Below, in pieces: positions 60,514 through 63,375 of a stretch of 64,000 nt of DNA (positions within the stretch are counted from its first letter, which is position 1; the number at the start of each line of letters is the position of its first letter). The position numbers and the translations under genes were made by a program. Source of the DNA: an uncultured Candidatus Saccharibacteria bacterium (GTDB lineage Bacteria > Patescibacteriota > Minisyncoccia > Phycocordibacterales > UBA12445); the NCBI GenBank assembly GCA_964531375.1, contig CAZHDO010000001.1:196861-260860 (forward strand), read 5' to 3'. Under the pieces are notes generated by a model. The model was not told the origin of the DNA, made no database searches, and saw nothing but the letters and a program-made list of their open reading frames with translations.

Positions 60514-63375
60514 TTATATGACAATATTCACAAGTCGATCTTTTACGTAAATAACTTTTTTAATTACGGCTCCAGTTGTGTATTTTTTTATAGCTTCATT
60601 TTCAAGTGCAATTTTTTGTGCCTCAGATTCGGTAATTCCTACTGGCACAGATATCGTGCTTCTAACTTTTCCATTTATTTGTAGAACTAAATTAAAATTA
60701 TTTTTAATAATTTTTGCTGGATCAAATTTTGGCCATATTGATTTGTAGATAAGTTTTTTGTTCCCAAGATTGTTCCAGATCTCATCGGTTACGTGCGGTG
60801 CAAATGGTGCAAGCAGTAATAAGATTTGCTCGTAAGTTTTTCTTGAAACGAATTCTCTACTATCAAGCTCGTTTGAAAATATCATCATTGAACTTATTGC
60901 TGTGTTGAAACTAAAGTTTTCAATACTGTCAGATACCTTTTTAATTGTTTCGTTTAGTAATGATTCAAGCTCCTCGTCTATTGTTGCATTTTTATTTACC
61001 TTAAATTGAATCCTCCAGATTTTTTCTATAAATCTTCTGCACCCGATCATGTTGTCTGTTTTCCAGGCGATAGCTTGGTTGAATGGCCCCATAAACATTT
61101 CATACATTCTTAGCGTATCTGCGCCGTAGGTTTTTACCATGTCATCTGGGTTTACTACATTCCCCCATCTTTTGCTCATTTTTTTGCCATCTTCAGCGAG
61201 AATTAAACCAACGCTGTGTAAATTCATAAAGGGTTCTCCGTAAGACACGGCTCCAATATCAAAAAGGAATTTGTGCCAAAATCTAGCGTATATAAGATGT
61301 CTTGTTGCATGCTCTGCCCCACCAACATACATATCGACTGGCATAAAATATTTTTCTTCTTTTTTATCAACAAGCGCTTTCTTGTTTTTTGGATCTACAT
61401 ATCTTAAATAATACCAACAAGAACCGGCCCATTGTGGCATTGTATTTGTTTCTCTCTTTGCTTTGCCTTTACATTTTGGACATTTTGTATTTACCCATTT
61501 GGCGATGTCCGCTAAAGGTGATTCTCCTGTACCAGTTGGTGCATAGCTCTTAACTTTTGGAAGTATAACTGGTAATTCTTTTTCAGGAACTGGAATAATT
61601 CCACATTTTTCGCAATGAACGACTGGTATCGGCTCACCCCAGTATCTTTGTCTTGAAAAAACCCAATCTTTTAATTTATACGTTATCTTTTTATCACCAA
61701 ATTTTTTTGATTTGAGATACTCAGTAATTTTTTCTTTTGCTTCTTGACTTGATAACCCGTTAAATTTTCCCGAATTAAAAAGTTTACCTAATTCGGTCAT
61801 TGGGGAAAATCCTTCAAAGTTCATGGCTGAAAGCCAAATATCCCACTCACTGCACGTAAAGTTTTTAGGAAGTCCTTTTTTTAGATCAATCCATTGAAGC
61901 TCGTGTTTTGCCTTTTCTTCGTCAGTTACTACAACTTGTGTTGAGTCGTCATTAAATTCAAAAAAATATGCTGTTGGATATGCCACACGATTTTGTTGCT
62001 TGTGATAGGCTCCATATTCGCTATATGCTGATATCGATTTAAAAAGAAATTTTAAGTTTGAAATACCCGTTTCTTCTTTTATTTCACGGAGAATTGCCTC
62101 CATTTCATCTTCTCCTTCTTCAGCTCCACCCAATATGAATGTTGTCCACGGATTACTTTTCCAATTAAGCATCAAATACTCACCGGTTTTTTTATTCTTT
62201 ATTAACCCGTGAACCATTTTTCTTTCCACAATAGGATACCCCTCACGGTGAGGATTCTTTGTATCAATGCGTATAGGAAGGATCACTTGTTTTATTGGTA
62301 AATTATATTTCTTAGCAAAAGCAAAATCTCTTTCATCGTGTGCGGGTACTGCCATCACTGCGCCCGTGCCATAATGCCCAAGAACATAGTCAGCTACGAA
62401 TATAGGAACTTCTTCTCCATTGGCTGGATTGATAGCAGAGACTCCCTCAAGTTTAATACCAGTCTTTTCTTTCTTTTCCGCAGTTCTTTCTATCTCTGGT
62501 TTATTTTTTACTTCATCAATATATTTTTGAACTAATTCGTAATTTGTAATTTGTAATTTGCCTTTTTGTAATAATGGATGCTCTGGCGCTAGAACCACAT
62601 AAGTACAGCCAAAAATCGTATCAACCCTTGTTGTAAAAACCTTAATTCCTAATTCGTAATTCGTAATTTTAAAATTAATTTCAGTTCCTTCAGATTTTCC
62701 TATCCAATTTCTTTGAAGTTCTTTTATTGATTCTGGCCAAGCGAGCTTGTCTAGGTCTTGGAGCATACGATCTGCATATTCTGTAATTTTAAGAACCCAC
62801 TGTCGCATTGGTTTTTTTTCTACTTTTGAACCGCACCTTTCACAAAGATCACCATCTAGGTCTTCATTTGCAAGTCCCGTTTGGCAAGATGGGCACCAGT
62901 TAATTGGTTCATATGATTCGTATGCAAGTCCCTTTTTATACATTTGTAAAAAAGTCCATTGTGTCCATTTGTAATATTCTGGATCGGTGGTATTTATCTC
63001 ACGAGACCAGTCGTAATTGAAACCGATTTTCGATAGCTGGTTTTTAAATCTTTTTATATTTTTTTTAACAGCTACTTCTGGGTGTATTTTATTTTTAATT
63101 GCATAATTTTCAGCAGGAAGACCAAACGCATCCCAACCCATTGGATGAAGAATATTAAAGCCATTCATTTTTTTGTACCTCGAATATATGTCAGTTGCAA
63201 TATAGCCTTTTGGGTGACCAACATGTAGTCCATCTCCTGATGGATACGGGAACATATCAAGAACATAGCACTTTGGTTTTTTGCTGGATTTTTCTGTCTT
63301 AAAAATTTTGGCTTTATCCCACTTTTTCTGCCATTTGGACTCTATTTTTTTGTGATCATATTTCTTGGTTTTCAT
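60514..63375 (-). CDS. leuS: leucyl-tRNA synthetase carrying an inserted Nudix hydrolase domain
   Basis: HIGH ([12 protein letters not shown]) and editing-domain TTRVDTIFG. An approximately 155-aa insert with Nudix box [23 protein letters not shown]. KMSKS (KMSKR). The start is probably MKTKKYDHK. Confidence 0.9.
   Translation of the reverse strand: [953 protein letters not shown]

What the first reader, a model, noticed from the sequence alone, without database searches (positions are those of the whole stretch)
61810..62271. Complete Nudix hydrolase domain inserted in-frame inside leucyl-tRNA synthetase
The insertion sits between the end of the CP1 editing domain (…[22 protein letters not shown]) and the Leu-specific segment (…[10 protein letters not shown]…). 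E. coli LeuRS has about 20 residues at this position; this protein has about 155. The insert contains a textbook Nudix box, [23 protein letters not shown] (G-x5-E-x7-REUxEExGU), preceded by a W..F.LGG strand. The LeuRS reading frame is continuous and all synthetase motifs are intact, so the insert is neither an intein nor a pseudogene. A Nudix pyrophosphohydrolase fused into an aaRS could hydrolyse mis-activated aminoacyl-adenylates or Ap4A-type by-products of the synthetase, or cleave nucleotide-derived signalling molecules. I am not aware of this architecture being described.
Basis: partly seen in the sequence, partly recalled or inferred. Interest (0 to 1): 0.7.

Follow-up and report, generated by a model that had tools for sequence, protein, structure and literature searches.

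The report
Nudix hydrolase nested inside LeuRS editing domain
A complete, apparently active Nudix pyrophosphohydrolase domain sits in-frame inside the proofreading domain of an otherwise normal leucyl-tRNA synthetase; the design is conserved across many Parcubacteria (candidate phyla radiation) genomes, I found no paper describing it, and it points to an unknown nucleotide-cleaning job tied to tRNA charging.

Summary

It is not an artefact. More than 110 protein clusters and at least 80 species-level genomes, nearly all labelled Patescibacteria/Parcubacteria, carry it in frame.

The insert replaces an 11-17-residue loop inside the CP1 editing domain. The leucine-specific domain is absent.

In 93 homologues the Nudix metal ligands and a family signature (R385, [YF][FY]AxHKxxNR, E487, W495) are near invariant, although the insert diverges faster than the core (39% against 66% identity). 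The HIGH, KMSKS and editing motifs are invariant.

The same Nudix family occurs:
- one to three times per LeuRS, at two sites;
- as a separate gene directly upstream of LeuRS;
- inserted in a ProRS.

The closest relatives have lost it.

Most likely this is a bifunctional LeuRS/Nudix enzyme that removes a nucleotide-polyphosphate by-product such as Ap4A. The substrate is unproven. No paper describing the architecture was found.

The parts
60514..63375 (-). Leucyl-tRNA synthetase gene (953 aa plus stop). The ATG at 63375 is the likely start; the open frame extends upstream to a TTG at 63411.
   Evidence: ORF list. TIGR00396 leuS_bact scores 1050 bits against a cut-off of 548. Identical to public protein P0001. 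Aligns end to end with T. thermophilus and E. coli LeuRS except for the insert and the missing leucine-specific domain.
63214..63225 (-). HIGH motif (HVGH, aa 51-54) of the synthetic site.
   Evidence: Read directly from the sequence. H51 and H54 are invariant in 93/93 homologues.
62281..62712 (-). CP1 editing domain, N-terminal part (aa 222-365). It contains the T-rich motif FTTRVDT (62617..62637) and HDERD (62326..62340).
   Evidence: Pfam PF13603 matches aa 222-372, model positions 1-147 of 185. T248, T249, R250, T253, D347 and D350 are invariant in 93/93.
61795..62280 (-). Inserted Nudix module (aa 366-527), including a conserved N-terminal linker (P367, D371, N374, P375, G379, R385).
62062..62130 (-). 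Nudix box [23 protein letters not shown] (aa 416-438), the catalytic and metal-binding motif.
   Evidence: Regular-expression match; it is the only such box in all six frames of the window. E431 is kept in 93/93 homologues, E434 in 90/93, E435 in 93/93 and G416/G417 in 93/93.
61987..62019 (-). X-loop and family signature [11 protein letters not shown] (aa 453-463; family consensus E[YF][FY]AAHKxxNR). This is the presumed substrate and phosphate-binding region.
   Evidence: K459 is kept in 93/93 homologues, N462 in 91/93 and R463 in 92/93. Positions +16 and +17 after the box are aromatic in almost every sequence. The X-loop lies about 17 residues after the Nudix box according to PMC5389931.
61666..61794 (-). 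CP1 editing domain, C-terminal part (aa 528-570: [14 protein letters not shown]...KITYKLKDW).
   Evidence: Aligns to T. thermophilus LeuRS residues 379-420. G530 is invariant.
61168..61182 (-). KMSKS loop (KMSKR, aa 732-736). It directly follows the short linker 'AEDGK' that replaces the leucine-specific domain.
   Evidence: Read directly from the sequence. Conserved in 91-93 of 93 homologues. Query 728->731 spans T. thermophilus 580->636.

Best explanation
This is a bifunctional enzyme: a working bacterial-type LeuRS with a catalytically competent Nudix pyrophosphohydrolase nested in a surface loop of its CP1 editing domain. The insertion is old and typical of Parcubacteria/Paceibacteria in the candidate phyla radiation.

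Shown:
- the Nudix fold and an intact metal-binding box;
- strong purifying selection on the Nudix residues and on a family-specific signature (R385, W410, F413, [YF][FY]AxHKxxNR, E487, W495);
- intact synthetic and editing motifs in the host;
- repeated, independent physical linkage of this one Nudix family with aminoacyl-tRNA synthetases.

Inferred: the Nudix domain hydrolyses a nucleoside-polyphosphate compound generated or used at the synthetase. The leading candidate is a dinucleoside polyphosphate such as Ap4A or Ap3A, made when an enzyme-bound aminoacyl-adenylate reacts with ATP. Cleavage would give NMP plus NDP or NTP, so the by-product is destroyed where it is made, in an organism with a very small genome. 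The domain does not take part in leucylation itself, because the closest relatives have lost it and kept LeuRS.
For: Anatomy:
- Pfam NUDIX is above its cut-off and splits PF13603.
- The insert replaces an 11-17-residue loop of solved LeuRSs.
- The AlphaFold models are confident: pLDDT 94.5 alone, 10-residue block means of 88-95 in the full-length context, pTM 0.75.

Selection (93 single-insert homologues):
- The insert averages 39% identity to the window and the LeuRS core 66%.
- Even so, E431, E435, G416, G417, K459 and W495 are 93/93, and R385, R463 and E487 are 92/93.
- The E422/R430 pair changes together, Q with A or M, in 6 sequences, while the metal ligands stay.

Reality and spread:
- 117 of the 120 best LeuRS clusters carry PF00293.
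- One 8-residue pattern found 149 GTDB species representatives. All 80 loci fetched hold the motif in frame inside a long open frame, and nearly all of those frames also carry KMSK, HxGH and TTRxDT; a few are truncated by contig ends.

Link to aaRSs:
- LeuRS homologues carry 1-3 copies at two sites.
- 109 of the 149 best representative hits are LeuRS, and about 40 are not LeuRS-linked, most of them stand-alone proteins of 150-230 aa, about half of which carry the same HKxxNR motif.
- A stand-alone copy lies 2 bp upstream of a Nudix-LeuRS. Another lies 3 bp upstream of a LeuRS that lacks the insert.
- The same family (176 bits against the insert HMM) is inserted in a class II ProRS.

Dispensable for charging: P0008, P0019 and P0041 are 74-77% identical to the window over the aligned N-terminal ~41% of the query, the highest local identities in the table. 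They lack the Nudix and a small adjoining piece of CP1.

Substrate hints:
- Position +16 after the box is aromatic in 93/93 (Tyr 60, Phe 33) and +17 in 88/93. A Tyr in this X-loop marks ApnA hydrolases (PMC5389931).
- Ap4A hydrolases and RppH, which also cleaves Np4A, are among the best sequence and fold matches.
- aaRSs are the main source of ApnA (PMC4734340).
- The conserved basic residues K459 and R463, together with N462 and R385, suit a long phosphate chain (inference).
Against: - No substrate was or could be tested.
- The domain reaches no curated Nudix subfamily model: RppH 21-25 bits against cut-offs of 116-118, MutT 15 against 98, NudB 25 against 103.
- The best structural match, 2azw, has no known function.
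- The Tyr marker is weak, and Phe replaces it in a third of the family.
- LeuRS is not known as a strong Ap4A producer (my own knowledge).
- Stand-alone members also sit next to Fpg/MutM, next to uridine kinase, and in a dUTPase/thymidylate-kinase cluster.
- Other homologues carry unrelated hydrolase inserts: alpha/beta-hydrolase, HAD, Ham1. Both points fit a general house-cleaning role with no mechanistic tie to LeuRS.
- The orientation of the Nudix site relative to the synthetic and editing sites could not be examined, because the tools give no model coordinates.
Confidence: 0.45

Rival explanations
1. A general house-cleaning Nudix enzyme (for example an 8-oxo-GTP/dGTP or other non-canonical NTP pyrophosphatase) has simply been lodged in a permissive loop of an essential, well-expressed gene. 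This guarantees expression in a reduced genome. There is no mechanistic link to leucylation.
For: - LeuRS homologues tolerate several unrelated hydrolase inserts at other loops: alpha/beta-hydrolase or Ser_hydrolase and Ham1 after W237-244, and HAD after about W641.
- An IleRS in a related contig carries a His_Phos_1 insert.
- One stand-alone family member is 4 bp downstream of Fpg/MutM. Another lies in a contig with thymidylate kinase, dUTPase and a second Nudix.
- Close relatives lost the insert and kept LeuRS.
Against: - The same Nudix family, and not others, is found up to three times per LeuRS, as the gene immediately upstream of LeuRS, and inside a ProRS.
- 109 of the 149 best representative hits are LeuRS. 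That degree of specificity is hard to explain by permissive loops alone.
- MutT family models score far below their cut-offs.
Confidence: 0.3
2. An RppH- or Dcp2-like RNA 5'-end pyrophosphohydrolase or decapping domain acts on an RNA held by LeuRS, for example a 5'-triphosphate or an NAD/Np4A cap on tRNA-Leu precursors or other RNA.
For: - RppH models are the top, though sub-threshold, NCBIfam hits for the insert and for the stand-alone relatives.
- The decapping effector AvrM14 and Dcp2 lead or rank high in the PDB profile search.
- The host protein binds tRNA.
Against: - All scores lie far below the family cut-offs (21-40 bits against 116-118).
- Sequence identity to RppH is 14-17%.
- The insert is acidic across the family (mean pI 5.7, net charge about -5), which does not suit an RNA-binding surface.
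- The CP1 domain handles the tRNA 3' end, whereas the 5' end of mature tRNA is a monophosphate (established knowledge).
Confidence: 0.12
3. A non-catalytic Nudix-fold module serves as a structural brace, a ligand sensor that regulates editing or aminoacylation, or a protein-interaction surface.
For: - Nudix folds with non-enzymatic roles exist (PMC5389931 abstract).
- A minority subclade has E422Q together with R430A/M (6-7 of 93).
- The linkers are short, conserved and confidently modelled, which suggests rigid packing on CP1.
Against: - The three metal-binding glutamates are kept in 90-93 of 93 sequences, although the rest of the domain has diverged to about 39% identity to the window. That pattern is the signature of retained catalysis.
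- The variant subclade keeps those ligands as well.
Confidence: 0.08
4. One reading: the Nudix domain hydrolyses mis-activated aminoacyl-adenylates and so adds a pre-transfer proofreading step.
For: The domain sits in the editing domain. The leucine-specific domain, which in E. coli restrains tRNA-independent pre-transfer editing, is absent (PMC3643597).
Against: - Nudix chemistry targets a pyrophosphate bond, and aa-AMP has an acyl-phosphate (established knowledge).
- The post-transfer editing site is fully conserved.
- The same domain also occurs in a ProRS, between the anticodon-binding and C-terminal domains, and as a free protein.
Confidence: 0.04
5. An artefact: an assembly chimera, an intein or another mobile insertion, or a decaying pseudogene.
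For: None was found. The only oddity nearby is a 28-nt direct repeat elsewhere in the gene.
Against: - The frame is continuous, and an identical protein occurs on two contigs drawn from three sources.
- The same in-frame architecture occurs in all 80 fetched loci.
- Pfam reports no intein or Hint family.
- GC content matches the host gene: 0.37 for the insert against 0.35.
Confidence: 0.01

Closest known systems
Bacterial leucyl-tRNA synthetase (T. thermophilus 1H3N/2BYT, E. coli 4AQ7/3ZGZ)
   Same: The whole LeuRS body aligns (E about 1e-219). This includes the HIGH and KMSKS motifs, the ZN1 cysteines, the CP1 editing motifs, and the anticodon-binding and C-terminal domains.
   Different: A 162-residue Nudix module replaces an 11-17-residue CP1 loop. 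The leucine-specific domain is replaced by a short linker, as in Mycoplasma mobile and B. subtilis LeuRS (PMC3643597).
Nudix hydrolase superfamily (PF00293). The nearest solved structure is Enterococcus faecalis 'MutT/nudix family protein' 2AZW; the nearest characterised ones are E. coli RppH, Ap4A/Ap6A hydrolases, NudI, NudB and AvrM14.
   Different: - Identity to any solved Nudix protein is only 14-23%.
- It is below the cut-off of every curated subfamily model.
- It has its own signature, [YF][FY]AxHKxxNR plus E487 and W495.
- It is embedded in another enzyme's domain rather than free-standing.
aaRSs with appended or inserted extra catalytic domains (for example NCBIfam NF040702 'isoleucine--tRNA ligase, N-acetyltransferase domain-containing')
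   Same: A class Ia synthetase carries an additional, unrelated enzyme domain (the family is listed).
   Different: The domain is of a different type, and here it is nested inside the editing domain, which is itself an insertion. A 2026 survey of domain insertions reports PF13603 only as an insert and never as a host (PMC13114784).
Stand-alone Nudix proteins of the same family in CPR and related metagenomes (P0141, P0202, P0149 and others)
   Same: Same family by HMM score (130-200 bits). Many have the same Nudix box and HKxxNR motif. Some lie directly upstream of LeuRS.
   Different: They are separate genes of 150-230 aa, and some lie in unrelated neighbourhoods such as Fpg or uridine kinase.

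Membership tests
Nudix hydrolase superfamily (Pfam PF00293) | Score above the Pfam gathering threshold | tested here: met
   38.0 bits in the full protein and 42.2 bits on the insert alone, against a cut-off of 21.1.
Nudix hydrolase superfamily (Pfam PF00293) | Nudix box GX5EX7REUXEEXGU with its metal-binding glutamates | tested here: met
   [23 protein letters not shown] at aa 416-438. E431, E434 and E435 are kept in 93, 90 and 93 of 93 homologues.
Nudix hydrolase superfamily (Pfam PF00293) | Alpha/beta/alpha sandwich Nudix fold | tested here: met
Nudix hydrolase superfamily (Pfam PF00293) | Divalent-cation-dependent pyrophosphohydrolase activity | not testable with these tools
   This needs a recombinant enzyme assay.
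Bacterial leucine--tRNA ligase (NCBIfam TIGR00396) | Equivalog score above the cut-off | tested here: met
   1050.4 bits against a cut-off of 548.4.
Bacterial leucine--tRNA ligase (NCBIfam TIGR00396) | HIGH and KMSKS class I signature motifs | tested here: met
   HVGH at aa 51-54 and KMSKR at aa 732-736, conserved in 91-93 of 93 homologues.
Bacterial leucine--tRNA ligase (NCBIfam TIGR00396) | CP1 editing domain with the T-rich motif and the conserved Asp | tested here: met
   PF13603 scores 221 bits. T248, T249, R250, T253, D347 and D350 are invariant in 93/93.
Bacterial leucine--tRNA ligase (NCBIfam TIGR00396) | Leucine-specific domain before KMSKS (typical of the family, not universal) | tested here: not met
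   Query 728->731 spans T. thermophilus 580->636. Absence is known in B. subtilis and M. mobile LeuRS (PMC3643597), so it does not exclude membership.
ApnA (diadenosine polyphosphate) hydrolase subgroup of Nudix | Tyrosine in the X-loop about 16-18 residues after the Nudix box | tested here: inconclusive
   The window has Y454 at +16. In the family, +16 is Tyr in 60 and Phe in 33 of 93, and +17 is Phe in 67 and Tyr in 20. The marker is described in PMC5389931.
ApnA (diadenosine polyphosphate) hydrolase subgroup of Nudix | Significant whole-domain similarity to characterised Ap4A hydrolases | tested here: inconclusive
RNA pyrophosphohydrolase RppH (NCBIfam NF001936/NF001938) | Equivalog score above the cut-off | tested here: not met
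   21.7-25.4 bits against cut-offs of 116-118. RppH is nevertheless the best Foldseek match, at TM 0.63-0.66.
MutT 8-oxo-dGTP diphosphatase (TIGR00586 / NF008044) | Equivalog score above the cut-off | tested here: not met
   14.9 bits against 97.9, and 13.7 bits against 148.
Intein | Hint domain blocks and splice-junction residues (Cys/Ser at the N-terminus, His-Asn plus Cys/Ser/Thr at the C-terminus) | tested here: not met
   Pfam reports no Hint or intein family. The insert starts LPIRID and ends SPMT, followed by ELGK. The domain is a conserved Nudix fold.

The most novel reading that the evidence does not exclude
This Nudix family is a dedicated partner of aminoacyl-tRNA synthetases in ultra-small prokaryotes. 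It would be a third, previously unrecognised clean-up or control activity built into the synthetase, beside synthesis and editing. It could destroy Ap4A-type alarmones at their source, which would couple translation status to nucleotide signalling. Or it could destroy toxic adenylate-mimic or nucleotide compounds that target the synthetase. The recurrence of the family as 1-3 copies in LeuRS, as the gene immediately upstream of LeuRS, and as an insert in a class II ProRS would then reflect selection for physical proximity to the aminoacylation site.
Probability: 0.2. Interest if true: 0.85.

Novelty: new variant of a known kind. Interest (0 to 1): 0.62.

Why it matters
Synthetases with extra catalytic domains are rare in bacteria. 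The LeuRS editing domain has been described as a module that is only ever inserted and never hosts another domain (PMC13114784).

This case shows an enzyme nested inside that editing domain. It has been maintained under purifying selection across at least 149 species-level genomes, nearly all labelled Patescibacteria/Parcubacteria, it is multiplied up to three times in some lineages, and the same Nudix family is linked to LeuRS and ProRS in several independent ways.

If the Nudix domain acts on a synthetase by-product such as Ap4A, it would show how organisms with minimal genomes control dinucleotide alarmones. It would also define a new functional Nudix subfamily. If instead it is only a lodger, it is a clear natural example of how permissive the CP1 loops are, which is useful for engineering LeuRS.

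Either way the sequences are currently annotated only as 'leucine--tRNA ligase', so the second activity is invisible to metabolic reconstructions of these organisms.

Tried and rejected
- A word-indexed homology search with the insert alone found nothing. The exhaustive HMMER search and the full-length search were needed.
- The first genome scan, with the diverse insert alignment, failed because no stretch was conserved enough. A narrower alignment worked.
- The AFDB Foldseek library was unavailable. I could not list AlphaFold-database entries with the same architecture.
- The structure tools return no coordinates. The key geometric question, whether the Nudix site faces the editing site or the synthetic site, could not be addressed.
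- A neighbour-joining tree of all Nudix copies gave only a rough picture. The second copy at site 1 forms a tight clade, and some first copies group with the site-3 copies. I did not take it further.
- Rejected explanations: intein, pseudogene, assembly chimera and recent horizontal insertion. The insert's GC and GC3 match the host gene.
- Eight literature searches found no description of a Nudix-aaRS fusion.

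
Full report
**What is there.** The window carries a continuous minus-strand ORF at 60514..63411. Its likely start is the ATG at 63375. That start gives a 953-aa protein identical to a public protein annotated only as 'MAG: leucine--tRNA ligase [bacterium]' (P0001).

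NCBIfam TIGR00396 (leuS_bact) scores 1050 bits against a cut-off of 548. Pfam finds the class I catalytic domain, the LeuRS editing domain PF13603 and the anticodon-binding domain. Between the two pieces of PF13603 it finds NUDIX PF00293, at 38 bits in the whole protein and 42 bits (E = 1e-10) on the insert alone, against a cut-off of 21.1.

The Nudix box [23 protein letters not shown] lies at aa 416-438 (window 62062..62130). It matches GX5EX7REUXEEXGU exactly and is the only such box in all six frames of the window. The gene lies directly upstream of rpoB and rpoC in the same orientation.

**Where exactly it sits.** phmmer against PDB sequences aligns the query in three blocks to T. thermophilus LeuRS:
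- query 4-365 to Tt 2-362;
- query 528-728 to Tt 379-580;
- query 731-953 to Tt 636-876.

The same break is seen against 6q89 and E. coli LeuRS. So aa 366-527 (window 61795..62280) replace a loop of 11-17 residues.

That loop lies inside the CP1 editing domain. PF13603 is split at model position 147 of 185. Isolated CP1 crystal constructs such as 2ajg continue about 50 residues past the site.

The true leucine-specific domain (Tt about 581-635) is absent and is replaced by a short linker before KMSKR. This state is already known for B. subtilis and Mycoplasma mobile LeuRS (PMC3643597).

**It is a real, folded Nudix domain.**
- AlphaFold2 with a 30-sequence alignment of the insert gives pLDDT 94.5 and pTM 0.88.
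- In a full-length model (pLDDT 87.4, pTM 0.75) the 10-residue blocks covering the insert average 88-95.
- Foldseek against the PDB returns only Nudix proteins. E. coli RppH is best, at TM 0.63-0.66.
- A profile search of PDB sequences gives AvrM14, 2AZW, lupin Ap4A hydrolase, NudB and Dcp2, all near E = 1e-6 to 1e-7.
- No curated subfamily model is reached: RppH 21-25 bits against 116-118, NudB 25 against 103, MutT 15 against 98.

**It is not an artefact and not unique.**
- Of the 120 best LeuRS clusters, 117 carry PF00293. They come from NCBI, JGI, ENA and Logan assemblies, and the named ones are Parcubacteria, Paceibacterota, Vogelbacteria and similar.
- A scan of one genome per GTDB species with a single 8-residue pattern (E[YF]FAAHK[DN]) found 149 species representatives.
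- All 80 fetched loci carry the motif in a long open frame, and nearly all of those frames also contain KMSK, HxGH and TTRxDT; a few are truncated by contig ends.
- The named taxa are Uhr-, Wildermuth-, Taylor-, Moran-, Kaiser-, Yanofsky-, Yonath- and Kerfeld-bacteria and Paceibacterota.
- The insert's GC (0.37) and GC3 match the rest of the gene (0.35).
- There is no intein signature.

**Selection.** In 93 single-insert homologues the insert averages 39% identity to the window, against 66% for the LeuRS core. The catalytic and a family-specific set of residues are nevertheless almost invariant:
- 93/93: G416, G417, E431, E435, K459, W495.
- 92/93: R385, R463, E487.
- 91/93: N462.
- 90/93: E434.

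E422 and R430 change together, Q with A or M, in 6 sequences, and the metal ligands stay. Positions +16 and +17 after the box are almost always aromatic. They lie in the 'X-loop', which Srouji et al. link to substrate specificity, and a Tyr there marks ApnA hydrolases (PMC5389931).

The host's HIGH, KMSKS, T-rich and Asp editing residues are invariant or nearly so. Both activities appear to be maintained.

**The wider pattern is more striking than the original finding.** Mapping longer homologues onto the window protein shows several insertion sites:
- One or two tandem copies of the same Nudix family after W209-211, just before CP1.
- The present site, W365/530.
- Other hydrolases after W237-244: alpha/beta-hydrolase or Ser_hydrolase, and probably Ham1.
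- Other hydrolases after about W591-641: HAD.

Some LeuRSs have three Nudix copies. Some have two at the first site and none at the present one.

Of the 149 best representatives found by the exhaustive search with the insert, 109 are LeuRS. About 40 are not LeuRS-linked; most of these are stand-alone proteins of 150-230 aa, about half of which carry the same HKxxNR motif.

Neighbourhoods of the stand-alone copies:
- P0141 lies 2 bp upstream of a Nudix-containing LeuRS.
- P0202 lies 3 bp upstream of a LeuRS that has no insert.
- P0149 follows Fpg/MutM.
- P0155 neighbours a PRK-family kinase.
- P0142 lies between ArgRS and an IleRS with a His_Phos_1 insert, near thymidylate kinase and dUTPase.
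- P0143 lies near a ProRS that carries the same Nudix family (176 bits against the insert HMM) between its anticodon-binding and C-terminal domains. That ProRS variant is rare, with 5 clusters, and its Nudix-less relatives are labelled Nano- or Woesearchaeota.

Conversely, P0008, P0019 and P0041, which show the highest local identity to the window's LeuRS (74-77% over the aligned N-terminal ~41% of the query), have lost the Nudix together with the adjoining 'GxLxNSGxFxGL' piece of CP1. The insert is therefore not needed for leucylation.

**How it most likely works.**

Shown: a LeuRS with intact synthetic and editing sites carries a folded Nudix domain whose catalytic residues are under strong purifying selection. 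This one Nudix family is linked to aaRS genes by fusion, by multiplication and by adjacency.

Inferred: the domain is an active pyrophosphohydrolase whose substrate is connected with aminoacylation chemistry shared by class I LeuRS and class II ProRS. The best candidate is a dinucleoside polyphosphate such as Ap4A. The reasons are:
- aaRSs are the main cellular source of ApnA (PMC4734340);
- an aromatic X-loop residue is present;
- a conserved basic cluster is available for a long phosphate chain;
- ApnA hydrolases and RppH are among the nearest relatives.

I give this full statement about 0.45. The anatomical part, a real and probably active Nudix domain nested in the CP1 of a functional LeuRS as an ancient Parcubacterial trait, I rate above 0.9.

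Rivals:
- A general house-cleaning NTP pyrophosphatase lodged in a permissive loop (0.3). The other hydrolase inserts and the Fpg and dUTPase neighbourhoods support it.
- An RppH-like RNA 5'-end activity (0.12). The acidic character of the insert weakens it (pI about 5.7).
- A non-catalytic module (0.08). The conserved metal ligands weaken it.
It is chemically unlikely for a Nudix enzyme.

**Novelty.** Eight full-text searches found no description of a Nudix-aaRS fusion.
- The 2017 review of the Nudix clan does not mention tRNA or synthetases at all.
- A 2026 survey of domain insertions lists PF13603 as an insertion-only family with no host events (PMC13114784). The present architecture contradicts that.
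- The sequences themselves are public, and their Pfam hits are precomputed. So this is an unremarked rather than an unseen architecture.

I class it as a new variant of a known kind: an aaRS with an extra catalytic domain, containing a new Nudix subfamily. Interest is 0.62.

Noticed in passing
window 61168..61200 (aa 726-736 of LeuRS): The leucine-specific domain is missing. The sequence runs ...[14 protein letters not shown]..., so a short linker replaces about 55 residues of T. thermophilus LeuRS (581-635). This resembles the GKDG linker of Mycoplasma mobile LeuRS.
   Followed up: partly
window 62532-62559 and 62642-62669: A 28-nt direct repeat (86% identical, 110 nt apart) lies inside the CP1 coding region and encodes the peptide ITNYEL twice (aa 236-241 and 274-279). 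The first copy sits exactly where other homologues carry alpha/beta-hydrolase or Ham1 inserts (after W237-244). It could be a recombination footprint.
   Followed up: partly
window 63432..63914 (-): A 160-aa ORF lies immediately upstream of LeuRS and contains an HELYERE motif. Its only Pfam hint is a sub-threshold match to Peptidase_M78/IrrE-like (15 bits against a cut-off of 22).
   Followed up: partly
L086:2762-4693: A class II prolyl-tRNA synthetase carries the same Nudix family (176 bits against the insert HMM) between its anticodon-binding and C-terminal domains. Only 5 such clusters were found. Nudix-less relatives are labelled Nano- or Woesearchaeota. A stand-alone copy of the family lies about 680 bp upstream.
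   Followed up: partly
L084:5094-8498: An isoleucyl-tRNA synthetase has a histidine-phosphatase (PF00300) domain inserted in it. It lies in a contig that also holds ArgRS, two Nudix genes, dUTPase and thymidylate kinase. This is a second example of a hydrolase nested in a class Ia synthetase.
   Followed up: no
Homologues P0006, P0022, P0033, P0044, P0074, P0085, P0100, P0118, P0121, P0122 (proteins, not in the window): These LeuRSs carry three copies of the Nudix family: two in tandem before CP1 and one at the window's site. Some have additional alpha/beta-hydrolase or HAD inserts and reach 1300-1522 aa.
   Followed up: partly
L090:492-977 and 980-3217: A stand-alone Nudix protein of the family lies 3 bp upstream of a LeuRS that has an ordinary short CP1 loop and no Nudix. 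This is the 'split' version of the fusion. The YchF - DUF5671 - Nudix - LeuRS gene order (with one or two small unannotated ORFs interposed in L089) is seen in both L089 and the contig of P0141.
   Followed up: partly
window 221-305 (+): A tRNA-Leu(CAA) gene lies at the other end of the window. A tRNA-Glu(CTC) lies at 17443-17516 (-).
   Followed up: no
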